DNA of 64,000 bases from Auanema rhodensis (lineage: Eukaryota > Animalia > Nematoda): positions 7,936,001 through 8,000,000 of the forward strand of contig OZ059896.1 in NCBI GenBank assembly GCA_964057225.1. Reading direction: 5' to 3'. This document shows, piece after piece, positions 2 to 45,479 of this stretch (its first letter is position 1; every line of letters starts with the position of its first letter). The position numbers and the translations under genes were made by a program. A model generated the notes under the pieces. The model saw only the letters and a list, made by a program, of their open reading frames with translations, was not told where the DNA came from and searched no databases.

Positions 2-1846
2 GGTTGTCGTCGGAATCCGAGTCGTATAGCTTATAGTTGTCTCCTGAACTAGTGAAGCGGGTTTGTCCGTTGTTGTCGTTAATGACAGTCTTCTAGTCAG
101 ATAAGGCGGTGTTTCAATATCCTCTAACAGTGGTAAAAATGTTTTTATAAGTAGCTGGCGTGTATCCGCGCTTGGGGTTTGAATGCGAGGGTGGGGGCCC
201 ATCGATATACCGTAGTTAGAATCTTTATCTCGATATAGTTTGTTGGTATCTGGCACATTGATTGTTAATTGTCGGAACTTTTCATCATCTACGGCTGCTG
301 CTGTTTTATTTGGCCTTATTACTCGCAATGTCATCAAGTTATGGTATAAGTAAAGTGTATTTCTAAGTACTATACGCTCATCAGCATTGTCAGTTGTTAA
401 AGTTGGTCGGATAGGCGGCATGTTCACAAAGGATTTTAAAACCTCTTGCCTTGATGGTACCGACAGATTGTTTTCAAATATTACCGGTGTATAAGCTAGC
501 TCCATCGCTATGCTTTCGGCTCTTTCGCGGTAGGATCCGTCCTTTTCTAGTAGTTTTTCGTCAAATTCGTGTGCTGTTAATCTGTCACCTATCTGTTCTA
601 ATAATTGTTTTGAGGTTAAATACCGTATAGCGCCGCGAGTGGTTGCTGCCAGTTCCTTTTGCGCAAGAAAATAAAGTATTGCTTCCTCAGGGTCGTGTAT
701 TTCGTATGTTTGAAGGAAACGTTGTATGGATTTATCAGATACGGGACTTCTTAAGAAGAAATAAAACTTCTCGGGATGTGCTGAAACCCAATCAATAATT
801 GAATATGAAGGGTTGACAGCTCGTCTGGCCTTTATAAGCGGTATTATCTGATAAATACCAGGATTACTCATCACCGGTCGTAAGAAAGGATAAGGACAAA
901 TATTTAATATTAAAGTTTCAAAATCTTCCTGTTTTTGTATCCACTCCTTGTTTAATTCAACCGTGCATTCCGCAATTGCTCTTTTATCTCTTTTCGCCGG
1001 AAGTTTCTTATATTCTCTCTCTATTAAAACATGGATATTGGTGTCATTTGGGTACTGTGGTAAGAGAATGTAATTGCCAGTTGTGGTGTGGAAGATTGGC
1101 TGTTTAAAACAAGAAGATATTTGCTTCGGTATCTCTTTTTGATCGATTACAAGGGCTGATTGAGTGGTTGGTAACAGAATAATGCCGTCTCCAATTATCA
1201 CATCATATTCACTCATGTCGATATAGTTGCATCGATATTCATAAGGCTGTTTCTCCCATATGATGATTGAGGTATCTGATGCACATTCTCCATGATGCGC
1301 TAAGCATCCTTCAGTATTTAGTATTAAATTGGAGATTATAGTTTCATCTGGCATCCGTGTCATAACCCCTTTTTCGATAACCAATCTGGCTTTCTCTTCA
1401 CATAGTTCATTATTAAAAGATCGGCCTGGCGAGAAGGAAGGCTCGTCAGTTGCATATGTTATGCTGTCGATCTTCTTTAATTCACTCCAATTCCATCTTC
1501 TATCTCTCACTGCCAGTCTGCATTCTGCAGCTGGTATCTTTTCAATTCTCGCTATCGTTGTATTGGTATCTCTAAGGAACAAAAGGTCTCTGATACACAT
1601 TTTATGAATTTCTTTGGAGCATCTCCATGCATCCCATTCATGTGCCGTTTGATTCCTTGTATAAAGATGAACTTTTGTTCGTAAGATATGCTTTATTGGT
1701 GGTAATAAGCATTTTCGGAGAGATGGGGGACGGAGAAGGGCTCCTCCAGTAGCTTTAGTACATAGCTGGTATGCTTCAGCTGTTGTAACCAGTGATAAGA
1801 TTACTGATAAAGCTACGGCTAAAGTCAAAGGAGATATCAGAGTCAA
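2..1846 (-). other. env: Envelope glycoprotein domain (class III fusogen-like) with internal signal peptide and furin site
   Basis: Signal-like LTLISPLTLAVALSVILSLVTTAEA|YQLC (1772-1846). AWRCSKEIHKMC...IPAAECRLAV and GCLAHHGECASDTSIIIW...C echo rhabdovirus G Cys/Trp spacing. R-D-K-R at 980-991, N-glycosylation sequons (NQT, NWS, NDT, NLS, NKT), Thr-rich stretch at the window edge. Confidence 0.78.
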
Positions 1847-3892
1847 ATTATTGACTCTTGAGCCTCTACCTCTGCCTCTATTGTTGTTATTTCCCCTAAA
1901 GGTACTGTTATTTCTCTGTCTATTATTGCTCATTTCTTGATTTTGTGATGCATTATGGCTTCTTTGATACCCATTTTGATTTTGATTCTGATAATTTCGA
2001 CCGCGGTCACCAAAATTGCGGTTCCTAGCAAATGGGTTTTGGAAATTCCAGCCTTTTTGATTTTTTGAAAATTTATGATAATTTTGATTGTTTTGAAAGT
2101 TTGGATGATAATTGTTACAATTATTATAATTTTGATAATTTTTATTATTAAAAGATTGATAACCTCTTGCCATACCTCTCCCACCATTGTTTCTGCGCGG
2201 GGGGAAAGTTCTTTCAATTGCGTTAACCAATAGCGCCTGAGGGTCTGCTACTTGGTTTGCAATTGATTCCTCCCAGCGAGCACTATCAACAGCCTCAGCA
2301 AAAGTTTTGGGTTTTGCTCGAATTACCCCTGGGCGTATCGTATTTTTCAAGCCTCTCAAAAATGTGGACCTCAGAATGTGATCTTTATGAGTATCACTAT
2401 TAGAGAAAGCATTTAAGCTGAGGTTTCTTAACGTTTGTGCAAAACCATCAATTGATAAATCGCCTTGAGTGCTGTTTTGAAGTGTGATAAGGGCAGGGTC
2501 TTGATTGTATTCGGGACACAGCTTGGATGTTAACTCTTCTATTAGGGTAACCCAAGGTCCAGCTGTTCTGACCTTGTCAGGTAGCTCTAAATAAGCTTCC
2601 TCTGCTCTATCATTTTTCAATAGTAATGGTAAAATAGTTAGTCTTTCGGGCATCACTAAGCCTAAGGCGTTAGAAAAGGTATTAAACTTTGCCACGAAAT
2701 CTCTAAAGTTACGACTTCCGTCGTATATGGGGCAGTAAGGTGAGCTTAATGCGTGCGCAATGGTAGATTTACCAGCTCCCGGAAGACGTGGTGTCTCCGT
2801 CATGGTTGGTATATCCTCAGGGTATGTGCGAGATGACGTAATCCCTTTACTGCCTGAGCTTCTCGCCGTTAAATTCTTACCTCCCTTTTTCGAGTTACCA
2901 GATGTTGGATAACTAATGGTAGGGGCGGCTGAGGAGAACCGCTTCCCTGGGAGTTTGATAATTCGACTCGTTGCCTGAGGCGTCGAATGTATTGATACGC
3001 TTGAGCTGGGTATAGCGCTATCTGACTTATTAAGGGTTGGGTTGGAGGATACGTGAAGAGAGTTATCAACTTGTTCTGTTGTTACCTCCCCTGGAGACAA
3101 ATTCAAAACTTTTATTAAGCGAGCTGTTAAAGATTTCTTACTTTTGAACTTATCAGTAGTTAGTGATAAGGGCAAAACTTCGGTAATTTCCTGATTTGGT
3201 TCTACGGGATTATTAGAGGTTGAGCGCCTACGCGGTGTATTAGTTTTTCTTTTATTAATCTTTTTAGAATCAAGCTTTTTCGAATCAAGCTTATCAGTGA
3301 TAACTGATAAGGGTGATTTGCGAATAGTGAGAGATGAGGTTTTATTAAGTTGTGAGTTTTCTATCGGAGTGGAAAATGCCTGCGGTGTTAGAGTTAGTTC
3401 AAAAGAAGATGCAAGATCGTTATCAGTATTAACTGATAAAGTTGATAAGTTTAGGTGGGGGGTGGCTGGTGAAGTATTAGAGGTTATTTGTTTTGGTTTT
3501 TGAATTTTTTGAATCTTCTTATTACTTTTAAAAGAGTGTACCTTTGGAGTTGAAGCTGAAGTTTGAATATTGTAGTCCTGAATATAGAAATCAGGGTCCT
3601 CCTCGGTGTTGTCCGGAGGTGAATACGTGCCTTCTCGAGGAATGAAGGTTTTCTCGACTTTGGGTTTTACCTCTTGTTCAGGCTCTTCAATCTGAACACT
3701 GAGGAGTCGAGTGCGGCTTCTGGTTCGACTGGCGACTGCGATGTCGTCACTGGACTCAGAAGGGTATAGAGCAGGGACGGCCGAAGAGTATCTTCGTGCC
3801 ACTTTGGAATCACTCTTGGTTCGGAAAAACCGCGAGTGTTTCGTTATATGGGGGATGTTGACGTTGAATGAGTGACAAGAAATTCGGGTCGG
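2..3892 (-). CDS. Gag-Env polyprotein (partial, continues beyond window start; pro-pol expected downstream)
   Basis: Translated by hand for 2-2460 and 3782-3895; 2461-3781 checked against the open copy at 45480-46840. No stop from the TAA at 3893-3895 to position 2. Order: S/T/P/K-rich N-terminus; first Met at 2803 (MTETPRLP); capsid-like PIYDGSRNFRDFVAKF...FLRGLKNTIRPGVIRAKPKTFAEAVDSARWEE; N/Q/RG-rich tract; hydrophobic signal; Cys-rich glycoprotein. True start codon uncertain. Confidence 0.85.
2260..2803 (-). other. gag: Gag capsid-like domain within the polyprotein
   Basis: Motifs P-x-YDG-x3-F-x2-F-x3-F and FLRGL...P.TFAEAV..A resemble Ty3/Gypsy capsid (Retrotrans_gag-type) motifs. Recognised by eye, no HMM run. 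Confidence 0.8.
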
Positions 3893-4217
3893 TTATAGGA
3901 AAAGTAAGAAACGTTTGAAGATTGAGACGTGGCGTCTTTCGCCGAGAATCGTTATTAGATGAGAAAGAGTTTTAAAATCTTGGCCTGAGATCTGGCTCCG
4001 CCTATCTACCGTATTCTCTTTTCTTTATTCTATTTCACAGATGTTCATCAATTATAAATTTTGTTGGTCTTCGCTCTTTCTAGCCTCAATCTTAATACTT
4101 TACTCTAATTGAATTCTTGAAAGTATGAGAGAGATTTTCAGTCGTTTTATGTCCCCTTTTTATGCATAAGAATCTTTATATTTGTAGAGCTGAAAAAAAA
4201 AAAAAATAAATCAAAGA

Positions 4218-4751
4218 ATGGCTTATGAAGGTCTATCGGGAATGACTTTTGTCTTGAGGAAGCTGTACGCTGACCTCGTCTTGTATGATCAAGACGAAGT
4301 GTTAGCTTATAGGCCGCACCCAGACATAATTAAGATGGTTGGTTAAAACAAAGAAACATGTTATCTTAATAAGAATTTTTAGTTTATTGAGGATTTAAAG
4401 ATGCATTATCTGGGAAGGGGATTAGTAAACTTCTCCCTAATGCAGGAAATAGCGGATGAGGTTGCAGCTATCCGGCGATGGTGCCTCACCGACTTGTGCG
4501 CGCATTGGTATGAAAACCCAAATCTGGTCGCATCCCCTTGGAATTGGTATGAGCATAAGTCTCATGATTTTTATGATTATATGTCTAAAATTTTGTTTAA
4601 AATTTATTTATTTTATGAACAGTCTCCTATGGGCTTATTGCTAAGGACCTCTGCGGATTCAGTGTATTCGCAGTATTTAGAGCCTAGCGATGAGCCCATC
4701 TCACAGCCTATAGAATTTGTGAGACAGTTGCATTTTAAATGGGGCTTTTAA
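4218..4751 (+). CDS. Antisense two-exon accessory gene (162 aa hypothetical protein) inside the retroelement leader; exons 4218-4337 and 4383-4751
   Basis: ATG at 4218 follows an in-frame TGA. A 45-nt AT-rich intron GTTGGT...TTTTTAG (4338-4382) joins MAYEGLSG...DIIKM in frame to FIEDLK-MHYLGRG... (track ORF 4401-4751). AATAAA at 4768-4773, followed by a pyrimidine/T tract. Confidence 0.68.
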
Positions 4752-5716
4752 CAATTGTTTTATATATAATAAATACTTAATTTCACTCATTTGTTCTCTC
4801 TCTCTTTTTTTTTTTTCATAACACAAACTTTGGTCGAGCTTATTAATAAAGAAGGAGTGCGTGCGCCTTGGGAAAATGGCTCATGTGCACGTTGATTATT
4901 AAAAGCCGTGGGCGATTCTTTTTCGGAATGATTTTGGCATGCTAATGAGATTCCGAGAATATTTAAAAAGATTGCTCATTTTACTAATGGACTGAGACCA
5001 AAGCTCGTTTATAAAACGCAATTTTTTCTTTAAACCATTCTACTAATTTATAGAATATTACAATATGAATACTACGGTAGGTGTGTGGGAATATCTTATG
5101 ATGTTAGCAACAAAAATGAGCTGAGGAAGGTGACACATTCTACGGAGAAGAAAACATCCGTAGCCCATGTGCTTTCGCCAAAATGACCTGACAGGCAATA
5201 AAATTTGTGCCAGGATTTTTCGGACTAGTGTGGTCTATTCTCACAATCAAAAAAAAATAAAAACCGAATAACGGCTCCCGCAAAAATATTTAGTTAGCAT
5301 GCTCTTTTACGCCTGAATTTAACTTTCAAATCTCTAGTCCTGACCACAATAAAATATTAAACTTTGTGCGCTTTCAAAATTTCATTCTAACTCCTCGTTG
5401 CCAAATAATAATATAATCAAAATTTCGTTTGGTGAAATTGTCCCCTATTTCGATCCAAACGTCCTCAAAAAAAATGCAAGAGAAGCGGTGCAGAATACGG
5501 TATTATAAGGGTGGACACTCAGACGGTTTTATGAGTGGGGACAGCGGGTGAAATTTCAAAATTATATAGTCCTAGCTCTCTAAAAGAGAGATCCCTTGTA
5601 CTTGCACCTTATACAAGTTGGCGCCCTCATTATGTTGCTAACCGTGGAGGAAGTTTTAATTTAGATATCAAAATATGGACTTTTTATGCGAGTTTTTGCG
5701 ACAAAAATGAGTTCGA

Positions 5717-5729
5717 GGTGGAACCTCCA
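5717..5729 (-). promoter_or_regulatory. Primer-binding site for tRNA-Gln
   Basis: Minus strand TGGAGGTTCCACC is the reverse complement of the conserved animal tRNA-Gln 3' end GGTGGAACCT+CCA and directly abuts the LTR end. Confidence 0.85.
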
Positions 5730-6095
5730 CGTTCCATTATGCTCCTACGTATATTGAACAGACCATTGTAGTCTGCTCAACTACGCGTATAGTATTCCAT
5801 AAGTGTAGCGGTATGGAAACAGAGCATAAGGATTACATAAGATAAGGAAATATATAGGTTTATTATACACAATACAATATCATTACAATACAATAACACA
5901 AGGATAAAGTAAACTACACTTACAAGACAAAGACTAATATATAAGATTAACTAAGTTAGATGCAAACCGTCCATGGGCTTGCAAAGGGGCGAACTCCCGA
6001 ATAGGGGCATGAGGGAAGGCGGTGCCATTCCTCATTCCTCTAGTCGGTCTGGCTCTAACCCTGCAGTTACATATATAGAGTCTCCGAATGGAACG
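5730..6095 (-). repeat. 5' LTR (366 bp)
   Basis: Bounded by the perfect inverted repeat CGTTCCATT (5730-5738) / AATGGAACG (6087-6095). One end abuts the PBS, the other the array spacer. Minus-strand AATAAA at 5859-5864. The second LTR is not in the window. Confidence 0.78.
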
Positions 6096-6160
6096 GTAGT
6101 TTTAGTTGTCTCTTGTATGTTAGTTTCTACTATGAAATATGCGAATACGATATATTCGTA

Positions 6161-6233
6161 GCTTCCGTAGCGCAGTAGGCAGCGCGTCAGTCTCATAATC
6201 TGAAGGTCGTGAGTTCGAGCCTCACCGGGAGCA
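6161..6233 (+). tRNA. tRNA-Met(CAT), elongator; first copy, representative of the array
   Basis: Cloverleaf: acceptor GCTTCCG/CGGGAGC+A, D-stem GCGC/GCGC, anticodon arm TCAGT-CTCATAA-TCTGA, T-arm GTGAG-TTCGAGC-CTCAC. G1:C72, TTC T-loop and T31/T39 indicate eukaryotic elongator Met. No encoded CCA. Confidence 0.96.
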
Positions 6234-6236
6234 ATC

Positions 6237-6241
6237 TTTTT
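6237..6241 (+). terminator. Pol III oligo-T terminator (present after each tRNA copy)
   Basis: A T4-T5 run begins 3 nt after the discriminator (GCA-ATC-TTTT[T]) and is followed by a second T4. Confidence 0.75.
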
Positions 6242-6927
6242 CGTTTTCCTCGATTTAATCTGATACAAAAGATATTCTTTCATTTTTATAGTTTTGGTTG
6301 TCATTGTATGTTCGTAGCTACTAAGAAATATGCGAATACGATATATTCGTAGCTTCCGTAGCGCAGTAGGCAGCGCGTCAGTCTCATAATCTGAAGGTCG
6401 TGAGTTCGAGCCTCACCGGGAGCAATCTTTTTCGTTTTCCTCGATTTAATCTGATACAAAAGATGTTATTTCATTTTTGTAGTTTTGGTTGTCTCTTGTA
6501 TGTTAGTTTCTACTAAGAAATTTGCGCACACGCTTTATTCGTAGCTTCCGTAGCGCAGTAGGCAGCGCGTCAGTCTCATAATCTGAAGGTCATGAGTTCG
6601 AGCCTCACCGGGAGCAATCTTTTCCGTTTTCCCAGATTTATTCTGATACAAAAGATGTTATTTCACTTTTGTAGTTTTGGTTGTCTCTTGTATGTTAGTT
6701 TCTACTATGAAATATGCGAATACGATATATTCGTAGCTTCCGTAGCGCAGTAGGCAGCGCGTCAGTCTCATAATCTGAAGGTCGTGAGTTCGAGCCTCAC
6801 CGGGAGCAATCTTTTCCGTTTTCCCAGATTTATTCTGATACAAAAGATGTTATTTCATTTTTGTAGTTTTGGTTGTGTCTTGTATGTTAGTTTCTACTAT
6901 GAAATATGCGAATACGATATATTCGTA

Positions 6928-7000
6928 CCTTCCGTAGCGCAGTAGGCAGCGCGTCAGTCTCATAATCTGAAGGTCGTTACTTCTAGCCTCACCGGGAGCA
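6928..7000 (+). pseudogene. tRNA-Met copy with disrupted T-arm/B-box (same allele near 7121, 9424, 10192)
   Basis: GTTACTTCTAGC replaces GTGAGTTCGAGC, breaking T-stem pairs and the GTTCRA B-box. This copy also has G1>C. Confidence 0.8.
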
Positions 7001-10000
7001 ATCTTTTCCGTTTTCCCTATATTTATTCTGATACAAAAGATGTTATTTCATTTTTGTAGTTTTGGTTGTCTCTTGTATGTTAGTTTCTACTATGAAATAT
7101 GCGAATACGATATATTCGTAGCTTCCGTAGCGCAGTAGGCAGCGCGTCAGTCTCATAATCTGAAGGTCGTTACTTCTAGCCTCACCGGGAGCAATCTTTT
7201 CCATTTTTCCTATATTTATTCTGATACAAAAGATGTTATTTCATTTTTGTAGTTTTGGTTGTCTCTTGTATGTTAGTTTCTACTAAGAAATTTGCGCACA
7301 CGCTTTATTCGTAGCTTCCGTAGCGCAGTAGGCAGCGCGTCAGTCTCATAATCTGAAGGTCGTGAGTTCGAGCCTCACCGGGAGCAATCTTTTTCGTTTT
7401 CCCAGATTTATTCTGATACAAAAGATGTTATTTCATTTTTGTAGTTTTGGTTGTCTCTTGTATGTTAGTTTCTACTATGAAATATGCGAATACGATATAT
7501 TCGTAGCTTCCGTAGCGCAGTAGGCAGCGCGTCAGTCTCATAATCTGAAGGTCGTGAGTTCGAGCCTCACCGGGAGCAATCTTTTCCGTTTTCCGAGATT
7601 TATTCTGATACAAAATATGTTATTTCATTTTTGTAATTTTGGTTGTTTCTTGTATGTTTGTAGCTACTAAGAAATTTGCGCACACTCTATATTCGTAGCT
7701 TCCATAGCGCAGTAGGCAGCGCGTCAGTCTCATAATCTGAAGGTCGTGAGTTCGAGCCTCACCGGGAGCAATCTTTTCCGTTTTCCCAGATTTTTTCTGA
7801 TACAAAAGATGTTATTTCATTTTTGTAGTTTTGGTTGTCTCTTGTATGTTAGTTTCTACTATGAAATATGCGAATACGATATATTCGTAGCTTCCGTAGC
7901 GCAGTAGGCAGCGCGTCAGTCTCATAATCTGAAGGTCGTGAGTTCGAGCCTCACCGGGAGCAATCTTTTCCGTTTTCCTCGATTTATTCTGATACAAAAG
8001 ATATTCTTTCGTTTTTGTAATTTTGGTTGTCTCTTGTATGTTCGTAGCTACTAAGAAATATGCGAATACGATTTATTCGTAGCTTCCGTAGCGCAGTAGG
8101 CAGCGCGTCAGTCTCATAATCTGAAGATCGTGAGTTCGAGCCTCACCGGGAGCAATCTTTTCCGTTTTCCTCGATTTATTCTGATACAAAATATGTTATT
8201 TCATTTTTGTAATTTTGGTTGTCTCTTGTATGTTTGTAGCTACTAAGAAATTTGCGCACACGCTATATTCGTAGCTTCCGTAGCGCAGTAGGCAGCGCGT
8301 CAGTCTCATAATCTGAAGGTCGTGAGTTCGAGCCTCACCGGGAGCAATCTTTTCCGTTTTCCCAGATTTATTCTGATACAAAAGATGTTATTTCATTTTT
8401 GTAGTTTTGGTTGTCTCTTGTATGTTAGTTTCTACTAAGAAATATGCGAATACGATATATTCGTAGCTTCCGTAGCGCAGTAGGCAGCGCGTCAGTCTCA
8501 TAATCTGAAGGTCGTGAGTTCGAGCCTCACCGGGAGCAATCGTTTTCGTTTTCCTCGATTTATTCTGATACAAAAGATATTCTTTCATTTTTATAGTTTT
8601 GGTTGTCATTGTATGTTCGTAGCTACTAAGAAATATGCGAATACGATATATTCGTAGCTTCCGTAGCGCAGTAGGCAGCGCGTCAGTCTCATAATCTGAA
8701 GGTCGTGAGTTCGAGCCTCACCGGGAGCAATCTTTTCCGTTTTCCCAGATTTATTCTGATACAAAAGATGTTATTTCATTTTTGTAGTTTTGGTTGTCTC
8801 TTGTATGTTAGTTTCTACTATGAAATATGCGAATACGATATATTCGTAGCTTCCGTAGCGCAGTAGGCAGCGCGTCAGTCTCATAATCTGAAGGTCGTGA
8901 GTTCGAGCCTCACCGGGAGCAATCTTTTTCGTTTTCCTCGATTTATTCTGATACAAAAGATATTCTTTCATTTTTATAGTTTTGGTTGTCATTGTATGTT
9001 CGTAGCTACTAAGAAATATGCGAATACGATATATTCGTAGCTTCCGTAGCGCAGTAGGCAGCGCGTCAGTCTCATAATCTGAAGGTCATGAGTTCGAGCC
9101 TCACCGGGAGCAATCTTTTCCGTTTTCCCAGATTTATTCTGATACAAAAGATGTTATATCATTTTTGTAGTTTTAGTTGTCTCTTGTATGTTAGTTTCTA
9201 CTATGAAATATGCGAATACGATATATTCGTAGCTTCCGTAGCGCAGTAGGCAGCGCGTCAGTCTCATAATCTGAAGGTCGTGAGTTCGAGCCTCACCGGG
9301 AGCAATCTTTTCCGTTTTCCGAGATTTATTCTGATACAAAATATGTTATTTCATTTTTGTAATTTTGGTTGTTTCTTGTATGTTTGTAGCTACTAAGAAA
9401 TTTGCGCACACGATATATTCGTAGCTTCCGTAGCGCAGTAGGCAGCGCGTCAGTCTCATAATCTGAAGGTCGTTACTTCTAGCCTCACCGGGAGCAATCT
9501 TTTCCGTTTTCCCTATATTTATTCTGATACAAAAGATATTCTTCCATTTTTATAGTTTTGGTTGTCATTGTATGTTCGTAGCTACTAAGAAATATGCGAA
9601 TACGATTTATTCGTAGCTTCCGTAGCGCAGTAGGCAGCGCGTCAGTCTCATAATCTGAAGGTCGTGAGTTCGAGCCTCACCGGGAGCAATCTTTTCCGTT
9701 TTCCTCGATTTATTCTGATACAAAAGATATTCTTTCATTTTTGTAATTTTGGTTGTCTCTTGTATGTTCGTAGCTACTAAGAAATATGCGAATACGATTT
9801 ATTCGCAGCTTCCGTAGCGCAGTAGGCAGCGCGTCAGTCTCATAATCTGAAGATCGTGAGTTCGAGCCTCACCGGGAGCAATCTTTTCCGTTTTCCTCGA
9901 TTTATTCTGATACAAAATATGTTATTTCATTTTTGTAATTTTGGTTGTCTCTTGTATGTTTGTAGCTACTAAGAAATTTGCGCACACGCTATATTCGTAG

Positions 10001-12198
10001 CTTCCGTAGCGCAGTAGGCAGCGCGTCAGTCTCATAATCTGAAGGTCGTGAGTTCGAGCCTCACCGGGAGCAATCTTTTCCGTTTTCCCAGATTTTTTCT
10101 GATACAAAAGATGTTATTTCATTTTTGTAGTTTTGGTTGTCTCTTGTATGTTAGTTTCTACTATGAAATATGCGAATACGATATATTCGTAGCTTCCGTA
10201 GCGCAGTAGGCAGCGCGTCAGTCTCATAATCTGAAGGTCGTTACTTCTAGCCTCACCGGGAGCAATCTTTTCCGTTTTCCCTATATTTATTCTGATACAA
10301 AAGATATTCTTCCATTTTTATAGTTTTGGTTGTCATTGTATGTTCGTAGCTACTAAGAAATATGCGAATACGATTTATTCGTAGCTTCCGTAGCGCAGTA
10401 GGCAGCGCGTCAGTCTCATAATCTGAAGGTCGTGAGTTCGAGCCTCACCGGGAGCAATCTTTTCCGTTTTCCTCGATTTATTCTGATACAAAAGATATTC
10501 TTTCATTTTTGTAATTTTGGTTGTCTCTTGTATGTTCGTAGCTACTAAGAAATATGCGAATACGATTTATTCGTAGCTTCCGTAGCGCAGTAGGCAGCGC
10601 GTCAGTCTCATAATCTGGAGATCGTGAGTTCGAGCCTCACCGGGAGCAATCTTTTCCGTTTTCCTCGATTTATTCTGATACAAAATATGTTATTTCATTT
10701 TTGTAATTTTGGTTGTCTCTTGTATGTTTGTAGCTACTAAGAAATTTGCGCACACGCTATATTCGTAGCTTCCGTAGCGCAGTAGGCAGCGCGTCAGTCT
10801 CATAATCTGAAGGTCGTGAGTTCGAGCCTCACCGGGAGCAATCTTTTCCGTTTTCCCAGATTTATTCTGATACAAAAGATGTTATTTCATTTTTGTAGTT
10901 TTGGTTGTCTCTTGTATGTTAGTTTCTACTAAGAAATATGCGAATACGATATATTCGTAGCTTCCGTAGCGCAGTAGGCAGCGCGTCAGTCTCATAATCT
11001 GAAGGTCGTGAGTTCGAGCCTCACCGGGAGCAATCGTTTTCGTTTTCCTCGATTTATTCTGATACAAAAGATATTCTTTCATTTTTATAGTTTTGGTTGT
11101 CATTGTATGTTCGTAGCTACTAAGAAATATGCGAATACGATATATTCGTAGCTTCCGTAGCGCAGTAGGCAGCGCGTCAGTCTCATAATCTGAAGGTCGT
11201 GAGTTCGAGCCTCACCGGGAGCAATCTTTTCCGTTTTCCCAGATTTATTCTGATACAAAAGATGTTATTTCATTTTTGTAGTTTTGGTTGTCTCTTGTAT
11301 GTTAGTTTCTACTATGAAATATGCGAATACGATATATTCGTAGCTTCCGTAGCGCAATAGGCAGCGCGTCAGTCTCATAATCTGAAGGTCGTGAGTTCGA
11401 GCCTCACCGGGAGCAATTTTTTTCGTTTTCCTCGATTTATTCTGATACAAAAGATATTCTTTCATTTTTATAGTTTTGGTTGTCATTGTATGTTCGTAGC
11501 TACTAAGAAATATGCGAATACGATATATTCGTAGCTTCCGTAGCGCAGTAGGCAGCGCGTCAGTCTCATAATCTGAAGGTCGTGAGTTCGAGCCTCACCG
11601 GGAGCAATCTTTTCCGTTTTCCCAGATTTATTCTGATACAAAAGATGTTATTTCATTTTTGTAGTTTTGGTTGTCTCTTGTATGTTAGTTTCTACTATGA
11701 AATATGCGAATACGATATATTCGTAGCTTCCGTAGCGCAGTAGGCAGCGCGTCAGTCTCATAATCTGAAGGTCGTGAGTTCGAGCCTCACCGGGAGCAAT
11801 CTTTTTCGTTTTCCTCGATTTATTCTGATACAAAAGATATTCTTTCATTTTTATAGTTTTGGTTGTCATTGTATGTTCGTAGCTACTAAGAAATATGCGA
11901 ATACGATATATTCGTAGCTTCCGTAGCGCAGTAGGCAGCGCGTCAGTCTCATAATCTGAAGGTCGTGAGTTCGAGCCTCACCGGGAGCAATCTTTTCCGT
12001 TTTCCCAGATTTATTCTGATACAAAAGATGTTATATCATTTTTGTAGTTTTAGTTGTCTCTTGTATGTTCGTAGCTACTAAGAAATATGCGAATACGATA
12101 TATTCGTAGCTTCCGTAGCGCAGTAGGCAGCGCGTCAGTCTCATAATCTGAAGGTCGTGAGTTCGAGCCTCACCGGGAGCAATCTTTTTCGTTTTCCT

Positions 12199-13394
12199 TG
12201 AGGAAAGTGTTGGTGTTGATTACCTAGTACATAAGCTGAACTTTTTATAACGTTATCATCTATAAATCTAATCCTATCTCGTTGTGTTAGCTCTTAGTTC
12301 ACATATTTGAGTTTCTTCCTGGGTACATTCAACAATATCAATGAAAATACATTCAAAAAGGTAGCTGTTACCATTTCATCTACTCCAAATATACTCAGAG
12401 AGGTAACCATCGAACATATTTTGCTGTACCCTGTGCATGCGCTTGCTTTTAGTTTTAGCTTAATCTCAAAGACCTTCAATTATTTTGGTATTAGCTCCGG
12501 TCTCGGGATCCGTGAAGTTATACGTATGATTAACTGTTAAATGCCTATAATTTTGTGAAAGACTATTAATACTCCCGTATGCTCTCCAACAATCACTCAG
12601 TATATTAATTTCACGCTCAATACAATTAATAACGCAGCTGTTTAAGGTTTCTGCACTTCTATCAGGAACAGCAGAAAACCCATTGCGCTGGCCTAATACT
12701 ACCCGCATTAAACTTTCTGCTAGAAACTAACGTTTCATCAAATTCAACAGTCAAACTGGGATCTCCAATCTTTGGAGAATGCTTCAAGAGTTTAAATGCA
12801 CAAACTTTTCTTATATATTTATTATAATCCACGGCTGTTTTGCAAGAGCTTATCCCTAACTCATATTGACAGAACTTTACAGTAGTGTATTCCTTGCTCC
12901 AGCCGTGTACGAAAAAAATGAACTTGGTATAACCGAATTTTGAGCCTAAAATGTTTGTGTTGATTATATTCAGATTTTAACTTCATGAATTGATGAAATG
13001 TTCCTTTTTTTGTTAAAATTTCTCTTCTACAGTCTTTTCTAATATACCTTCACTTATTTCGAGCAGCAGAAAGACTCATTTGTCGTGTTCATCGGTCACC
13101 TTCGTTAGTTTGAGAGATTATTTCCTTCTCTTGCAGGAATTGGATGGCATCAGCTTCAGTACGATGTCTCTTTTTTGGAGCGAACATTTAGACGAAGTAT
13201 GGTTGATAATGCAGAAGCAATGACTAATAATGATTCAATTTTTATATCATAATATAATCAAGTTTTATTATACTTATTACAGACATTTACAAAGTAATAT
13301 TCGCTTTCATAATTCATTGTGAATGTAATGAAATATTATTCCTTAATAGAAAGAGACCCCTCCCCCCCAAAGCCCTAGATACGGAAAAAGAACC
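12199..13394 (-). mobile_element. Defective Merlin (IS1595/ISXO2-like DDE) DNA transposon fragment, long form 1196 bp, copy 1
   Basis: Frameshifted peptides KIGDPSLTVEFDETLVSSRKFNAG...QWVF and VPDRSAETL...ILSDCWRAY...HLTVNHTYNFTDPETGANTKIIEGL match Merlin/ISXO2 transposase motifs. One GG-starting end (GGTTCTTTTTCCGTATCTAGG on minus); no matching repeat at the other end. Confidence 0.85.
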
Positions 13395-15522
13395 GCAATC
13401 GTTTTCGTTTTCCTCGATTTATTCCGATACAAAAGATGTTATTTCATTTTTGTCGTTATGGTTGTCTCTTGTATGTTCGTAGCTACTAAGAAATTTGCGC
13501 ACACGCTATATTCGTAGCTTCCGTAGCGCAGTAGGCAGCGCGTCAGTCTCATAATCTGAAGGTCGTGAGTTCGAGCCTCACGGGGAGCAATCTTTTCCGT
13601 TTTCCCAGATTTATTCTGATACAAAAGATGTTATTTCATTTTTGTAGTTTTGGTTGTCTCTTGTATGTTAGTTTCTACTATGAAATATGCGAATACGATA
13701 TATTCGTAGCTTCCGTAGCGCAGTAGGCAGCGCGTCAGTCTCATAATCTGAAGGTCGTGAGTTCGAGCCTCACCGGGAGCAATCTTTTTCGTTTTCCTCG
13801 ATTTATTCTGATACAAAAGATATTCTTTCATTTTTATAGTTTTGGTTGTCATTGTATGTTCGTAGCTACTAAGAAATATGCGAATACGATATATTCGTAG
13901 CTTCCGTAGCGCAGTAGGCAGCGCGTCAGTCTCATAATCTGAAGGTCGTGAGTTCGAGCCTCACCGGGAGCAATCTTTTCCGTTTTCCCAGATTTATTCT
14001 GATACAAAAGATGTTATATCATTTTTGTAGTTTTAGTTGTCTCTTGTATGTTAGTTTCTACTATGAAATATGCGAATACGATATATTCGTAGCTTCCGTA
14101 GCGCAGTAGGCAGCGCGTCAGTCTCATAATCTGAAGGTCGTGAGTTCGAGCCTCACCGGGAGCAATCTTTTTCGTTTTCCTCGATTTATTGTGATACAAA
14201 AGATATTCTTTCATTTTTATAGTTTTAGTTGTCTCTTGTATGTTCGTAGCTACTAAGAAATATGCGAATACGATATATTCGTAGCTTCCGTAGCGCAGTA
14301 GGCAGCGCGTCAGTCTCATAATCTGAAGGTCGTGAGTTCGAGCCTCACCGGGAGCAATCTTTTCCGTTTTCCCAGATTTATTCTGATACAAAAGATGTTA
14401 TTTCATTTTTGTAGTTTTGGTTGTCTCTTGTATGTTAGTTTCTACTATGAAATATGCGAATACGATATATTCGTAGCTTCCGTAGCGCAGTAGGCAGCGC
14501 GTCAGTCTCATAATCTGAAGGTCGTGAGTTCGAGCCTCACCGGGAGCAATTTTTTTCGTTTTCCTCGATTTATTCTGATACAAAAGATATTCTTTCATTT
14601 TTATAGTTTTGGTTGTCATTGTATGTTCGTAGCTACTAAGAAATATGCGAATACGATATATTCGTAGCTTCCGTAGCGCAGTAGGCAGCGCGTCAGTCTC
14701 ATAATCTGAAGGTCGTGAGTTCGAGCCTCACCGGGAGCAATCTTTTCCGTTTTCCCAGATTTATTCTGATACAAAAGATGTTATATCATTTTTGTAGTTT
14801 TAGTTGTCTCTTGTATGTTAGTTTCTACTATGAAATATGCGAATACGATATATTCGTAGCTTCCGTAGCGCAGTAGGCAGCGCGTCAGTCTCATAATCTG
14901 AAGGTCGTGAGTTCGAGCCTCACCGGGAGCAATCTTTTTCGTTTTCCTCGATTTAATCTGATACAAAAGATATTCTTTCATTTTTATAGTTTTGGTTATC
15001 ATTGTATGTTCGTAGCTACTAAGAAATATGCGAATACGATATATTCGTAGCTTCCGTAGCGCAGTAGGCAGCGCGTCAGTCTCATAATCTGAAGGTCGTG
15101 AGTTCGAGCCTCACCGGGAGCAATCTTTTTCGTTTTCCTCGATTTATTCTGATACAAAAGATATTCTTTCATTTTTATAGTTTTGGTTGTCATTCTATGT
15201 TCGTAGCTACTAAGAAATATGCGAATACGATATATTCGTAGCTTCCGTAGCGCAGTAGGCAGCGCGTCAGTCTCATAATCTGAAGATCGTGAGTTCGAGC
15301 CTCACCGGGAGCAATCTTTTCCGTTTTCCCAGATTTATTCTGATACAAAAGATGTTATATCATTTTTGTAGTTTTAGTTGTCTCTTGTATGTTCGTAGCT
15401 ACTAAGAAATATGCGAATACGATATATTCGTAGCTTCCGTAGCGCAGTAGGCAGCGCGTCAGTCTCATAATCTGAAGGTCGTGAGTTCGAGCCTCACCGG
15501 GAGCAATCTTTTTCGTTTTCCT

Positions 15523-16718
15523 TGAGGAAAGTGTTGGTGTTGATTACCTAGTACATAAGCTGAACTTTTTATAACGTTATCATCTATAAATCTAATCCTA
15601 TCTCGTTGTGTTAGCTCTTAGTTCACATATTTGAGTTTCTTCCTGGGTACATTCAACAATATCAATGAAAATACATTCAAAAAGGTAGCTGTTACCATTT
15701 CATCTACTCCAAATATACTCAGAGAGGTAACCATCGAACATATTTTGCTGTACCCTGTGCATGCGCTTGCTTTTAGTTTTAGCTTAATCTCAAAGACCTT
15801 CAATTATTTTGGTATTAGCTCCGGTCTCGGGATCCGTGAAGTTATACGTATGATTAACTGTTAAATGCCTATAATTTTGTGAAAGACTATTAATACTCCC
15901 GTATGCTCTCCAACAATCACTCAGTATATTAATTTCACGCTCAATACAATTAATAACGCAGCTGTTTAAGGTTTCTGCACTTCTATCAGGAACAGCAGAA
16001 AACCCATTGCGCTGGCCTAATACTACCCGCATTAAACTTTCTGCTAGAAACTAACGTTTCATCAAATTCAACAGTCAAACTGGGATCTCCAATCTTTGGA
16101 GAATGCTTCAAGAGTTTAAATGCACAAACTTTTCTTATATATTTATTATAATCCACGGCTGTTTTGCAAGAGCTTATCCCTAACTCATATTGACAGAACT
16201 TTACAGTAGTGTATTCCTTGCTCCAGCCGTGTACGAAAAAAATGAACTTGGTATAACCGAATTTTGAGCCTAAAATGTTTGTGTTGATTATATTCAGATT
16301 TTAACTTCATGAATTGATGAAATGTTCCTTTTTTTGTTAAAATTTCTCTTCTACAGTCTTTTCTAATATACCTTCACTTATTTCGAGCAGCAGAAAGACT
16401 CATTTGTCGTGTTCATCGGTCACCTTCGTTAGTTTGAGAGATTATTTCCTTCTCTTGCAGGAATTGGATGGCATCAGCTTCAGTACGAAGTCTCTTTTTT
16501 GGAGCGAAAAATTAGACGAAGTATGGTTGATAATGCAGAAGCAATGACCAATAATGATTCAATTTTTATATCATAATATAATCAAGTTTTATTATACTTA
16601 TTACAGACATTTACAAAGTAATATTCGCTTTCATAATTCATTGTGAATGTAATGAAATATTATTCCTTAATAGAAAGAGACCCCTCCCCCCCAAAGCCCT
16701 AGATACGGAAAAAGAACC
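15523..16718 (-). mobile_element. Merlin fragment, long form, copy 2
   Basis: Near-identical to 12199-13394, same junctions. Confidence 0.85.
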
Positions 16719-18271
16719 GCAATCGTTTTCGTTTTAATCGATTTATTCCGATACAAAAGATGTTATTTCATTTTTGTAGTTATGGTTGTCTCTTGTATGT
16801 TCGTAGCTACTAAGAAATTTGCGCACACGCTATATTCGTAGCTTCCGTAGCGCAGTAGGCAGCGCGTCAGTCTCATAATCTGAAGGTCGTGAGTTCGAGC
16901 CTCACCGGGAGCAATCTTTTCCGTTTTCCCAGATTTATTCTGATACAAAAGATGTTATTTCATTTTTGTAGTTTTGGTTGTCTCTTGTATGTTAGTTTCT
17001 ACTATGAAATATGCGAATACGATATATTCGTAGCTTCCGTAGCGCAGTAGGCAACGCGTCAGTCTCATAATCTGAAGGTCGTGAGTTCGAGCCTCACCGG
17101 GAGCAATCTTTTTCGTTTTCCTCGATTTATTCTGATACAAAAGATATTCTTTCATTTTTATAGTTTTGGTTGTCATTGTATGTTCGTAGCTACTAAGAAA
17201 TATGCGAATACGATATATTCGTAGCTTCCGTAGCGCAGTAGGCAACGCGTCAGTCTCATAATCTGAAGGTCGTGAGTTCGAGCCTCACCGGGAGCAATCT
17301 TTTCCGTTTTCCCAGATTTATTCTGATACAAAAGATGTTATTTCATTTTTGTAGTTTTGGTTGTCTCTTGTATGTTAGTTTCTACTATGAAATATGCGAA
17401 TACGATATATTCGTAGCTTCCGTAGCGCAGTAGGCAACGCGTCAGTCTCATAATCTGAAGGTCGTGAGTTCGAGCCTCACCGGGAGCAATCTTTTCCGTT
17501 TTCCCAGATTTATTCTGATACAAAAGATGTTATTTCATTTTTGTAGTTTTGGTTGTCTCTTGTATGTTAGTTTCTACTATGAAATATGCGAATACGATAT
17601 ATTCGTAGCTTCCGTAGCGCAGTAGGCAGCGCGTCAGTCTCATAATCTGAAGGTCGTGAGTTCGAGCCTCACCGGGAGCAATTTTTTTCGTTTTCCTCGA
17701 TTTATTCTGATACAAAAGATATTCTTTCATTTTTATAGTTTTGGTTGTCATTGTATGTTCGTAGCTACTAAGAAATATGCGAATACGATATATTCGTAGC
17801 TTCCGTAGCGCAGTAGGCAGCGCGTCAGTCTCATAATCTGAAGGTCGTGAGTTCGAGCCTCACCGGGAGCAATCTTTTCCGTTTTCCCAGATTTATTCTG
17901 ATACAAAAGATGTTATATCATTTTTGTAGTTTTAGTTGTCTCTTGTATGTTAGTTTCTACTATGAAATATGCGAATACGATATATTCGTAGCTTCCGTAG
18001 CGCAGTAGGCAGCGCGTCAGTCTCATAATCTGAAGGTCGTGAGTTCGAGCCTCACCGGGAGCAATCTTTTTCGTTTTCCTCGATTTAATCTGATACAAAA
18101 GATATTCTTTCATTTTTATAGTTTTGGTTGTCATTGTATGTTCGTAGCTACTAAGAAATTTGCGCACACGCTGTATTCGTAGTTTCCGTAGCGCAGTAGG
18201 CAGCGCCTCAGTCTCATAATCTGAAGGTCGTGAGTTCGAGCCTCACCGGGAGCAATCGTTTTCGTTTTCCT

Positions 18272-19467
18272 TGAGGAAAGTGTTGGTGTTGATTACCTAG
18301 TACATAAGCTGAACTTTTTATAACGTTATCATCTATAAATCTAATCCTATCTCGTTGTGTTAGCTCTTAGTTCACATATTTGAGTTTCTTCATGGGTACA
18401 TTCAACAATATCAATAAAAATACATTCAAAAAGGTAGCTGTTACCATTTCATCTACTCCAAATATACTCAGAGAGGTAACCATCCAACATATTTTACTAT
18501 ACCCTGTGCATGCGCTTGCTTTTAGTTTTGGCTAAATCTCAAAGACCTTCAATTATTTTGGTATTAGCTCCGGTCTCGGGATCCGTGAAGTTATACGTAT
18601 GATTAACTGTTAAATGCCTATAATTTTGTGAAAGACTTTTAATACTCCCATATGCTCTCCAACCATCGCTCAGTATATTAATTTCACGCTCAATACAATT
18701 AATAACGCAGCTGTTTAACGTTTCTGCACTTCTATCAGGAACAGCAGAAAACCCATTGCGCTGGCCTAATACTACCCGCATTAAACTTTCTGCTAGAAAC
18801 TAACGTTTCATCAAATTCAACAGTCAAACTGGGATCTCCAATCTTTGGAGAATGCTTCAAGAGGTTAAATGCACAAACTTTTCTTATATATTTATTATAA
18901 TCCACGGCTGTTTTGCAAGAGCTTATTCCTAACTCATATTGACAGAACTTTACAGTAGTGTATTCCTTGCTCCAGCCGTGTACGAAAAAAATGAACTTGG
19001 TATAACCGAATTTTGAGCCTAAAATGTTTGTGTTGATTATATTCAGATTTTAACTTTATGAGTTGATGAAATGTTCCATTTTTTGTTAAAATTTCTCTTC
19101 TACAGTCTTTTCTAATATACCTTCACTTATTTCGAGCAGCAGAAAGACTCATTTGTCGTGTTCATCGGTCACCTTCGTTAGTTTGAGAGATTATTTCCTT
19201 CTCTTGCAGGAATTGGATGGCATCAGCTTCAGTACGAAGTCTCTTTTTTGGAGCGAACATTTAGACAAAGTATGGTTGATAATGCAGAAGCAATGACCAA
19301 TAATGATTCAATTTTTATATCATAATATAATCAAGTTTTATTATACTTATTACAGACATTTACAAAGTAATATTCGCTTTCATAATTCATTGTGAATGTA
19401 ATGAAATATTATTCCTTAATAGAAAGAGACCCCTCCCCCCCAAAGCCCTAGATACGGAAAAAGAACC
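18272..19467 (-). mobile_element. Merlin fragment, long form, copy 3
   Basis: Near-identical, same junctions. Confidence 0.85.
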
Positions 19468-22400: not shown

Positions 22401-24080
22401 TTTTGGTTGTCATTGTATGTTCGTAGCTACTAAGAAATATGCGAATACGATATATTCGTAGCTTCCGTAGCGCAGTAGGCAGCGCGTCAGTCTCATAATC
22501 TGAAGGTCGTGAGTTCGAGCCTCACCGGGAGCAATCTTTTTCGTTTTCCTCGATTTATTCTGATACAAAAGATATTCTTTCATTTTTATAGTTTTGGTTG
22601 TCATTCTATGTTCGTAGCTACTAAGAAATATGCGAATACGATATATTCGTAGCTTCCGTAGCGCAGTAGGCAGCGCGTCAGTCTCATAATCTGAAGGTCG
22701 TGAGTTCGAGCCTCACCGGGAGCAATCTTTTTCGTTTTCCTCGATTTAATCTGATACAAAAGATATTCTTTCATTTTTATAGTTTTGGTTGTCATTGTAT
22801 GTTCGTAGCTACTAAGAAATTTGCGCACACGCTGTATTCGTAGTTTCCGTAGCGCAGTAGGCAGCGCCTCAGTCTCATAATCTGAAGGTCGTGAGTTCGA
22901 GCCTCACCGGGAGCAATCTTTTTCGTTTTCCTCGATTTAATCTGATACAAAAGATATTCTTTCATTTTTATAGTTTTGGTTGTCATTGTATGTTCGTAGC
23001 TACTAAGAAATATGCGAATACGCTATATTCGTAGCTTCCGTAGCGCAGTAGGCAGCGCGTCAGTCTCATAATCTGAAGGTCGTGAGTTCGAGCCTCACCG
23101 GGAGCAATCTTTTCCGTTTTCCCAGATTTATTCTGATACAAAAGATGTTATATCATTTTTGTAGTTTTAGTTGTCTCTTGTATGTTAGTTTCTACTATGA
23201 AATATGCGAATACGATATATTCGTAGCTTCCGTAGCGCAGTAGGCAGCGCGTCAGTCTCATAATCTGAAGGTCGTGAGTTCGAGCCTCACCGGGAGCAAT
23301 CTTTTTCGTTTTCCTCGATTTATTCTGATACAAAAGATATTCTTTCATTTTTATAGTTTTAGTTGTCTCTTGTATGTTCGTAGCTACTAAGAAATATGCG
23401 AATACGATATATTCGTAGCTTCCGTAGCGCAGTAGGCAGCGCGTCAGTCTCATAATCTGAAGGTCGTGAGTTCGAGACTCACCGGGAGCAATCTTTTTCG
23501 TTTTCCTCGATTTAATCTGATACAAAAGATATTCTTTCATTTTTATAGTTTTGGTTGTCATTGTATGTTCGTAGCTACTAAGAAATTTGCGCACACGCTG
23601 TATTCGTAGCTTCCGTAGCGCAGTAGGCAGCGCGTCAGTCTCATAATCTGAAGGTCGTGAGTTCGAGCCTCACCGGGAGCAATCTTTTTCGTTTTCCTCG
23701 ATTTATTCTGATACAAAAGATATTCTTTCATTTTTATAGTTTTGGTTGTCATTGTATGTTAGTTTCTACTATGAAATATGCGAATACGATATATTCGTAG
23801 CTTCCGTAGCGCAGTAGGCAGCGCGTCAGTCTCATAATCTGAAGGTCGTGAGTTCGAGCCTCACCGGGAGCAATCTTTTTCGTTTTCCTCGATTTAATCT
23901 GATACAAAAGATATTCTTTCATTTTTATAGTTTTGGTTGTCATTGTATGTTCGTAGCTACTGAGAAATTTGCGCACACGCTGTATTCGTAGTTTCCGTAG
24001 CGCAGTAGGCAGCGCCTCAGTCTCATAATCTGAAGGTCGTGAGTTCGAGCTTCACCGGGAGCAATCGTTTTCGTTTTCCT

Positions 24081-25126: not shown

Positions 25127-26104
25127 GCAATCGTTTTCGTTTTAATCGATTTATTCCGATACAAAAGATGTTATTTCATTTTTGTAGTTATGGTTGTCTC
25201 TTGTATGTTCGTAGCTACTAAGAAATTTGCGCACACGCTATATTCGTAGCTTCCGTAGCGCAGTAGGCAGCGCGTCAGTCTCATAATCTGAAGGTCGTGA
25301 GTTCGAGCCTCACCGGGAGCAATCTTTTCCGTTTTCCCAGATTTATTCTGATACAAAAGATGTTATTTCATTTTTGTAGTTTTGGTTGTCTCTTGTATGT
25401 TAGTTTCTACTATGAAATATGCGAATACGATATATTCGTAGCTTCCGTAGCGCAGTAGGCAACGCGTCAGTCTCATAATCTGAAGGTCGTGAGTTCGAGC
25501 CTCACCGGGAGCAATCTTTTTCGTTTTCCTCGATTTATTCTGATACAAAAGATATTCTTTCATTTTTATAGTTTTGGTTGTCATTGTATGTTCGTAGCTA
25601 CTAAGAAATATGCGAATACGATATATTCGTAGCTTCCGTAGCGCAGTAGGCAGCGCGTCAGTCTCATAATCTGAAGGTCGTGAGTTCGAGCCTCACCGGG
25701 AGCAATCTTTTCCGTTTTCCCAGATTTATTCTGATACAAAAGATGTTATATCATTTTTGTAGTTTTAGTTGTCTCTTGTATGTTAGTTTCTACTATGAAA
25801 TATGCGAATACGATATATTCGTAGCTTCCGTAGCGCAGTAGGCAGCGCGTCAGTCTCATAATCTGAAGGTCGTGAGTTCGAGCCTCACCGGGAGCAATCT
25901 TTTTCGTTTTCCTCGATTTAATCTGATACAAAAGATATTCTTTCATTTTTATAGTTTTGGTTGTCATTGTATGTTCGTAGCTACTAAGAAATTTGCGCAC
26001 ACGCTGTATTCGTAGTTTCCGTAGCGCAGTAGGCAGCGCCTCAGTCTCATAATCTGAAGGTCGTGAGTTCGAGCCTCACCGGGAGCAATCGTTTTCGTTT
26101 TCCT

Positions 26105-45477: not shown

Positions 45478-45479
45478 CA

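What the first reader, a model, noticed from the sequence alone, without database searches (positions are those of the whole stretch)
2..3892. Hidden ~1,300-codon ORF fusing Gypsy-type Gag directly to an RNA-virus-like class III envelope protein
Seen: one stop-free minus-strand frame, missed by the ORF track, reading capsid > N/Q/RG-rich tract > internal signal peptide > Cys-rich glycoprotein with an RDKR site. Established: env normally follows pol; a continuous gag-env-pro-pol ORF has been described for nematode endogenous retroviruses (NERVs) whose env resembles RNA-virus glycoproteins. Inference: this is a young, possibly infectious member of that group. Host signal peptidase would release Env from Gag, loosely as in flavivirus structural polyproteins.
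Basis: partly seen in the sequence, partly recalled or inferred. Interest (0 to 1): 0.85.

Follow-up and report, generated by a model that had tools for sequence, protein, structure and literature searches.

The report
Nematode provirus with capsid-fused envelope
This is the front half of a retrovirus-like element, likely of a roundworm, whose capsid and predicted membrane-fusion protein lie in one reading frame, a layout already published for nematodes; its long leader also holds a spliced gene on the opposite strand and a 1.2-kb stretch with no ATG that likely yields two forms of the capsid protein.

Summary
The 1,297-codon frame is real and runs off the window edge. It reads Ty3/Gypsy capsid, N/Q/RG tract, internal signal, Cys-rich domain, RDKR. 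A model of the Cys-rich domain matches class III fusogens (Z 11.6 to HSV gB; RNA-virus glycoproteins top the viral library). Of 75 relatives, all 20 with a species name among 29 looked up are nematode proteins; 38 carry capsid and env in one chain. A 366-bp LTR and a tRNA-Gln primer site lie upstream. So it is a new member of the published GAG-ENV-POL (NERV) group; the scan noted the same layout earlier in a flatworm. TM helix, pol and 3' LTR lie outside the window and were not seen; infectivity is untested. The original NERV paper could not be read, so some of these may be known.

The parts
5730..6095 (-). 5' LTR, 366 bp, 9-bp perfect terminal inverted repeat with CG..CG ends instead of TG..CA; AATAAA at 5859
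   Evidence: higher contig depth than the interior in 4 of 4 runs
5718..5729 (-). Primer-binding site, directly after the LTR; identical to the tRNA-Gln 12-mer listed for two Caenorhabditis GAG-ENV-POL elements
3893..5717 (-). Long leader between primer site and the open frame; patches shared with a more abundant sister family
   Evidence: (joints 5145-5425)
4218..4337 (+). Antisense accessory gene, exon 1 (ATG 4218, 40 codons)
4338..4382 (+). 45-nt GT..AG intron of the antisense gene, with two in-frame stops
   Evidence: skipped in one contig of run X12 (RNA by guess), in none of 3 DNA runs (table 5)
4383..4751 (+). Antisense accessory gene, exon 2 (122 codons plus stop; 162 codons in all), AATAAA 17 nt after the stop; no family hit
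2804..4047 (-). Stretch with no ATG in any frame (1,245-nt gap between ATGs; next longest 366)
2..3892 (-). Stop-free gag-env frame, 1,297 codons, open at the window edge
2804..3892 (-). In-frame Met-free extension (363 codons, S/T/K/P-rich); candidate GTG start at 3800-3802 with A at -3 and G at +4 (inferred)
2801..2803 (-). First ATG of the frame, likely start of the short Gag form
2261..2716 (-). Ty3/Gypsy-type capsid domain (aa 393-544)
1853..2200 (-). N/Q- and RG-rich tract in the nucleocapsid position, no CCHC knuckle
   Evidence: sequence
1772..1840 (-). Internal signal sequence (aa 685-707), predicted cleavage after A707
1052..1771 (-). Class III fusogen N-half (fusion domain plus PH-like domain), 10 conserved Cys; hairpin tip LLFL at aa 770-773 is the likely first fusion loop
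980..991 (-). Furin-type site RDKR (aa 968-971)
2..979 (-). Post-furin insert ending in a Thr/Pro-rich stretch; homologous to the insert of Auanema protein P0014; fold unknown
6096..64000 (+). Host flank: tandem array of tRNA-Met genes (217 called, 192-bp unit); the LTR abuts the spacer 65 bp upstream of the first gene
45480..46840 (-). Isolated 1,361-bp piece of the extension and gag, 99.0% identical, inside the tRNA array

Best explanation
This is the 5' half of an LTR retroelement (Metaviridae), likely of a nematode, in which Gag and a predicted class III envelope protein are encoded in one frame that likely continues into the membrane anchor and pol beyond the window edge, as in the published GAG-ENV-POL (NERV) elements. 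Mechanism. Shown: LTR, primer site, one frame with capsid, basic tract, hydrophobic signal, Cys-rich domain, RxKR. Predicted by model: class III fusion and PH-like domains. Inferred: Gag is made in the cytosol; the internal signal (basic residues on its N-side) threads Env into the ER and signal peptidase cuts after A707; a TM helix beyond the window returns the chain to the cytosol, where protease, RT, RNase H and integrase follow and are freed by the element's protease; a furin-type protease cuts at RDKR, leaving the insert at the start of the membrane-anchored subunit, where it would act as receptor-binding part or glycan shield. Inferred for the leader: ribosomes start at low rate at a non-AUG codon near nt 3802 to make a Gag with a ~330-residue disordered extension, and most scan on through the ATG-free stretch to ATG 2803; a separate antisense transcript makes a 162-residue accessory protein, whose intron survives reverse transcription because it is backwards on the genomic RNA.
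For: 75 relatives of the env N-half at E<=0.001, best 6e-33 (1 is an fn3 false hit). Of 29 of them scanned with Pfam, 20 carry Monjiviricetes_fusion, Glycoprotein_B or BDV_G and 15 have protease and/or RT/RNase H/integrase downstream of env in the same chain. 38 of 77 fetched relatives have capsid 34-667 aa before env in one chain; 56 of 59 chains (window included) have a hydrophobic segment before the env start. 10 of 12 env Cys are kept in 78-100% of aligned rows. Model from a 68-row alignment: pLDDT 84-98 over env residues 11-260; VIA Z 11.6, rmsd 4.8, 218 aligned to HSV gB, Z 8.7, rmsd 8.5, 194 aligned to Chandipura G, best non-fusogen 5.0; BFVD top hits Beihai rhabdo-like virus 3, Keturi virus and Midway nyavirus G, E 2-5e-13. 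LTR and primer site match PMC13524379 supplement 1: 8 of 36 nematode elements use tRNA-Gln, 2 with this very 12-mer. Contigs of 2 runs go on more than 1,060 nt past the window edge at interior depth, and the LTR has higher depth than the interior in 4 of 4 runs. 17 of 27 listed variants in the frame are synonymous against 8.0 expected, p 0.0003. ATG-free gap: 0 out-of-frame ATG against 6.1 in codon shuffles (p 0.0012) and no Met in 363 codons (p 0.006); 5 of 6 variants in codons 31-363 synonymous (p 0.014).
Against: C-half, TM, pol and 3' LTR are not in the window, and the letters of the contig parts beyond the edge were not shown. Pfam gives the window's own env no hit and capsid hits stay below cut-off. 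Whole-model TM-scores are low (0.27) because two thirds of the model is unreliable; the alignment is wrong after the furin site, so the model says nothing on the insert. Both listed variants in the env N-half are non-synonymous. For codons 1-363 as a whole the synonymous excess is not significant (5 of 8, p 0.08), the cut at codon 31 was chosen after seeing the GTG, and 14 further variants (in or outside the frame) were not shown. The ATG test was made after the gap was noticed. The intron rests on one contig of depth 3.9 from a run whose RNA nature is a guess. Some relatives are gene models that may join frames through predicted introns.
Confidence: 0.88

Rival explanations
1. Same family, but this copy is defective or differently punctuated beyond the window: env lacks its C-half or pol lies in a separate frame, so it moves, if at all, with help from the more abundant sister family.
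For: Three close relatives (P0004, P0008, P0011) have no or only a remnant C-half hit; several end before pol; PMC13524379 allowed up to 2,000 nt between ENV and POL; a sister family shares LTR ends and leader patches at higher depth.
Against: Frame intact for 1,297 codons; 10 of 14 variants in the insert synonymous, p 0.0009; collinearity with P0014 puts the C-half about 30 codons past the edge; contigs run on unbranched.
Confidence: 0.12
2. The Met-free extension is reached by splicing from an upstream ATG exon (as Cer1 makes CERV from a spliced RNA), not by non-AUG initiation; or it is untranslated and only an RNA element.
For: In-phase acceptor-like sites at about 3692 and 3578 (sequence; one search lists the first); 24 ATGs in the leader; Cer1 uses spliced mRNAs (PMC10309623 abstract and passages); region 3700-3900 folds better than shuffles (z -2.7); no relative of the extension among 85 fetched proteins.
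Against: Splicing alone gives no reason to avoid out-of-frame ATGs; X12 contigs cross both sites unspliced and show no minus-strand joint (weak: contigs drop variants); a 363-codon stop-free frame has chance about 3e-9 from composition.
Confidence: 0.25
3. A domesticated host gene derived from gag-env.
For: Purifying selection and near-identity across runs with five organism labels.
Against: Complete LTR with terminal repeats, exact primer site, junction inside a tRNA-array spacer, LTR depth above interior depth.
Confidence: 0.03
4. A BEL/Pao element carrying the same env family.
For: 4 of 29 scanned relatives are BEL/Pao polyproteins with this env.
Against: In all four env follows pol; the window's Gag hits Ty3_capsid/Retrotrans_gag; its env groups with Auanema (SH-aLRT 97) and other rhabditid gag-env proteins (92) in a quick tree.
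Confidence: 0.01

Closest known systems
Nematode GAG-ENV-POL errantiviruses with HSV/gB-type ENV (PMC13524379) = NERVs of Sacco et al. 2022 (J Gen Virol, PMID 35550022; not held, seen only as cited)
   Same: gag then env order, class III env with signal, LTR of 366 bp (173-424 in the 8 tRNA-Gln elements), tRNA-Gln primer site, long leader (1.2-1.9 kb in 6 of those 8). P0081, in the cluster of hit P0064, lies on a 12,007-nt C. brenneri contig, the length given for Cbre_errantivirus_2 (identity inferred from species and length).
   Different: About 23-38% identity to the nearest relatives. ATG-free extension, spliced antisense gene, CG..CG ends and the variable post-furin insert were not met in the passages read ('antisense' 0, 'accessory' 0 occurrences). 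From memory, Sacco et al. report extra small ORFs in NERVs, so the accessory gene may be covered there.
Auanema sp. JU1783 proteins P0003, P0014, P0020
   Same: Closest env N-half (38%, tree support 97) and the only clear relative of the insert (E 1e-16 in a 28-sequence set)
   Different: Short partial records; element structure unknown
Class III fusogens: herpesvirus gB, rhabdovirus G, nyamivirus/borna-type G
   Same: Fusion domain plus PH-like domain, Z 8.7-11.6; internal furin-type site
   Different: 8-17% identity; embedded in a Gag polyprotein; long insert after the furin site
MLV glyco-Gag and rice tungro bacilliform virus leaky scanning (PMC3542737, passages)
   Same: Non-AUG N-terminally extended Gag; about 895 nt nearly free of AUG ahead of a downstream ORF
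   Different: Works-like comparison only; the extension here has no signal or TM segment and is not shown to be translated
C. elegans Cer1 CERV (PMC10309623)
   Same: Accessory protein of a nematode Gypsy element made from a spliced RNA
   Different: CERV is sense-strand and shares peptides with Gag; no sequence comparison was made

Membership tests
Nematode GAG-ENV-POL / NERV (Metaviridae) | Ty3/Gypsy-type Gag | tested here: met
   Pfam E 0.0017-0.0035, below cut-off; 27-35% identity over about 160 aa to relatives that pass Retrotrans_gag
Nematode GAG-ENV-POL / NERV (Metaviridae) | env directly after gag in the same frame | tested here: met
Nematode GAG-ENV-POL / NERV (Metaviridae) | Env is a gB/G-type class III protein | tested here: met
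   N-half only:
Nematode GAG-ENV-POL / NERV (Metaviridae) | TM helix, then protease, RT, RNase H, integrase after env | not testable with these tools
   beyond the window edge; no genome held; present in relatives (15 of 29)
Nematode GAG-ENV-POL / NERV (Metaviridae) | 5' LTR and tRNA primer site | tested here: met
Nematode GAG-ENV-POL / NERV (Metaviridae) | 3' LTR nearly identical to the 5' LTR | tested here: inconclusive
   not in the window; LTR depth 394 against 187-236 inside in X1, higher in the other 3 runs too, which fits a second LTR or solo LTRs
Nematode GAG-ENV-POL / NERV (Metaviridae) | RT phylogeny within the nematode clades | not testable with these tools
   RT not in the window; quick env tree groups it with rhabditid elements
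Nematode GAG-ENV-POL / NERV (Metaviridae) | Nematode host | tested here: inconclusive
   20 of 20 species-named relatives are nematodes; 45-nt intron; an earlier AI note calls this genome a nematode; host not identified directly
Class III viral fusogen | Fusion domain with hydrophobic loops inserted in a PH-like domain | tested here: met
Class III viral fusogen | Central helix, crown domain, TM anchor, trimer | not testable with these tools
   C-half absent from the window; relatives' C-half matches gB at E 2e-15
Class III viral fusogen | Membrane-fusion activity | not testable with these tools
   needs an assay
BEL/Pao with gB-like env | env after pol; DUF1759-type Gag | tested here: not met
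   env follows capsid directly

The most novel reading that the evidence does not exclude
Probability: 0.45. Interest if true: 0.65.

Novelty: new member of a known kind. Interest (0 to 1): 0.4.

Why it matters
The gag-env fusion itself is published, so it adds one divergent, apparently intact member. What could matter is how such a single-frame element regulates its proteins and enters cells, which is open: this copy offers three testable handles (non-AUG extended Gag, a spliced antisense accessory gene, a variable post-furin domain under purifying selection). Insert length ranges from about 0 to 493 residues across 39 relatives with both halves, which marks one site where class III envelopes of retroelements gain and lose domains.

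Tried and rejected
No genome held, so no extension of the window. Word-index protein searches found nothing for env or insert (weak evidence). Single-sequence fold failed, pLDDT 33.6. phmmer of env against PDB sequences: nothing. Related loci: none confirmed in viral contigs or metagenome contigs; alignments A1 and A2 were too divergent to search, so no relative's DNA was read and the leader features could not be checked for conservation. Atlas gave no usable hit for P0014 insert or P0003. Pfam, PDB and PHROGs gave nothing for the antisense exons, the extension or the insert; none is excluded from a family by this. Rfam: only tRNAs in 3800-14000. No RNA holder is on record; X12-X15 are RNA by guess, so expression level is not claimed; X12 has no cover in 3 of 30 bins. 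The T-rich CAG at 4190 as a trans-splice site: possible, but it is also the A-run before the antisense ATG; not claimed. tRNA-gene targeting: one junction only, and contigs that run 1-79 nt past the LTR end could not be read; not claimed. The careful tree did not finish; only the quick tree is cited; BEL-linked envs are scattered in it and deep forks are open. No complex prediction was run. Searches for prior description of the leader features: (papers; earlier findings) found none; Sacco et al. 2022 is not held, and figures and 4 other supplementary tables of PMC13524379 were not seen, so they may bear on novelty.
Full report
Observation. The minus-strand frame 2..3892 is stop-free for 1,297 codons and open at the window edge; 300 shuffles gave at most 230 codons. 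The first ATG is at codon 364 (nt 2803). No genome is held, so nothing left of base 1 was read.

The element. A 12-mer at 5718-5729 equals the tRNA-Gln primer site listed for two Caenorhabditis GAG-ENV-POL elements in supplement 1 of PMC13524379. It abuts a 366-bp block (5730-6095) with a perfect 9-bp terminal inverted repeat, AATAAA and TATA-like motifs, ending in CG rather than TG/CA (the TG..CA norm is recalled). Beyond 6095 lies a tandem array of 217 tRNA-Met genes; the junction falls in the spacer, 65 bp upstream of the first gene. Fifteen public runs in 4 studies hold the stretch, 11 with over half its words, under five organism labels. In the 4 runs laid, the LTR has higher depth than the interior (X1 394 against 187-236; X2 80 against 30-54; X3 56 against 15-35; X12 63 against 3-7), and contigs of X1 and X3 run 1,104 and 1,063 nt past the left edge at interior depth. 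A 1,361-bp piece of the frame, 99.0% identical, sits at 45480-46840.

Env. An HMMER search of 1.84 billion representatives with env residues 1-292 gave 75 hits at E<=0.001. I scanned 29 of them with Pfam, chosen for score or length: 20 carry Monjiviricetes_fusion, Glycoprotein_B or BDV_G; 15 have protease or later pol domains downstream of env; 4 are BEL/Pao with env after pol; 1 is an fn3 false hit. Of 29 distinct hits looked up, 20 carry a species name and all 20 are nematodes. Capsid precedes env in one chain in 38 of 77 relatives, and 56 of 59 chains have a hydrophobic segment before env. With 67 of the hits aligned (8 left out: the false hit, four BEL chains and three long chains), 10 of 12 Cys are conserved and 31 of 40 rows with residues there have an R-x-K/R-R. 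The model has pLDDT 84-98 over residues 11-260 and is unreliable beyond. It matches HSV gB (Z 11.6, rmsd 4.8, 218 aligned), HCMV gB (11.3, 3.8, 210) and Chandipura G (8.7, 8.5, 194), above a background of PH domains at 5.0 or less; Foldseek ranks herpes gB first in PDB and RNA-virus glycoproteins first in BFVD. A quick tree of 69 N-halves places it beside Auanema (97) among rhabditid elements (92).

Insert. A profile of the relatives' C-half finds nothing in the window. In 39 proteins with both halves the gap between them is -1 to 493 residues; here it is at least 350, and it is homologous to the 383-residue insert of P0014, which puts the C-half about 30 codons beyond the edge. Ten of 14 listed variants in it are synonymous (p 0.0009), so it is under selection. 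Its fold is unknown.

Leader, feature 1. One search lists one joint in run X12 (RNA by guess, depth 3.9, absent from 3 DNA runs) that skips 45 nt with GT..AG ends on the plus strand, opposite to the element. Removing 4338-4382 joins an ATG-led 40-codon exon to a 122-codon exon, 162 codons in all, with AATAAA 17 nt after the stop; of 8 candidate short introns in the leader only this one gives a frame of 100 codons or more. Of the 4 listed substitutions in the gene, 3 plus a 7-nt insertion fall in the intron and the fourth is synonymous. No family was found.

Leader, feature 2. Between ATGs at 4048 and 2803 there is no ATG in any frame for 1,245 nt; the next longest gap is 366, and ATG has the most extreme gap of all 64 triplets. 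Codon shuffles give 6.1 out-of-frame ATGs (0 in 0.12%), and no Met in 363 codons has chance 0.006; the test is post hoc. One run has a stop at codon 3 of the frame, so a start would lie further in; 5 of 6 variants in codons 31-363 are synonymous (p 0.014; 5 of 8, p 0.08, for all 363). A GTG at 3802 has A at -3 and G at +4. By the precedents in PMC3542737 (MLV CUG-initiated Gag; RTBV's 895-nt scanned region; passages) the simplest reading is a long non-AUG form plus leaky scanning to ATG 2803. Splicing from an upstream exon, as for Cer1 CERV (PMC10309623), is the main rival.

Mechanism. Shown: layout and motifs. Predicted: class III fold of the N-half. Inferred from the family and from established signal-sequence rules: cytosolic Gag, signal-driven translocation, cut after A707, TM stop-transfer, cytosolic pol, furin-type cut at RDKR. 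Whether particles form or infect is untested.

Comparison with what is known. PMC13524379 (seen: passages, section 6 part 1 of 2, nematode rows of supplements 1 and 4; not figures) states that nematode, bryozoan and flatworm elements are arranged GAG-ENV-POL with gB-type ENV, lists 36 nematode elements, and credits Sacco et al. 2022 (reference entry only; not held; its content otherwise recalled). Every defining feature testable here is met; pol, TM, 3' LTR and RT placement are untested. The leader features, CG ends and insert were not found in the searches listed under Tried and rejected, but the original NERV paper, which I recall reports extra small ORFs, could cover part of them. Other papers: bioRxiv 10.64898/2026.03.22.711591 (passages; a different, class II env clade); tRNA-targeting papers (search listing only).

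Verdict. Real, correctly read in outline, a new member of a known kind; interest 0.4, carried mostly by the leader and insert rather than by the fusion.

Noticed in passing
window 6096-64000: Tandem array of 217 called tRNA-Met(CAT) genes with a 191-192-bp unit; some copies are degenerate. Very large for a single tRNA type.
   Followed up: partly
window 12182-13516 and 11 further copies up to 44335: A 1.2-1.3-kb spacer (two length classes, 97-100% identical) interrupts the tRNA array as a higher-order repeat; longest stop-free frame 104 codons, no Rfam hit; nature unknown.
   Followed up: partly
window 45480-46840: Isolated piece of the extension and gag patched between a tRNA gene and a truncated spacer, with short scrambled junctions, as after end-joining repair; shares three variants with run X1 and its own changes in the extension are mostly non-synonymous.
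   Followed up: partly
window 5114-5470, 5703-5750, 6047-6095: Contigs of a more abundant sister family share the LTR ends, primer site and three leader patches (depth up to about 1,080 in X1); the patches may be packaging or structural signals (leader fold z -1.9).
   Followed up: no
window 6095/6096: LTR junction 65 bp upstream of a tRNA gene, as for tRNA-targeting elements; single site, may be chance in an array.
   Followed up: partly
proteins P0032, P0050, P0065, P0073: BEL/Pao polyproteins carry the same env family after pol and do not group together in the quick env tree, suggesting repeated env exchange between Gypsy and BEL/Pao elements.
   Followed up: no
protein P0039 (ENA, 3,316 aa): 667 residues with extra hydrophobic segments lie between capsid and env in this relative.
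   Followed up: no
window 4377-4618: Loose contig ends within exon 2 of the antisense gene in X1 and X2 suggest paralogues elsewhere in the host or in sister elements.
   Followed up: no
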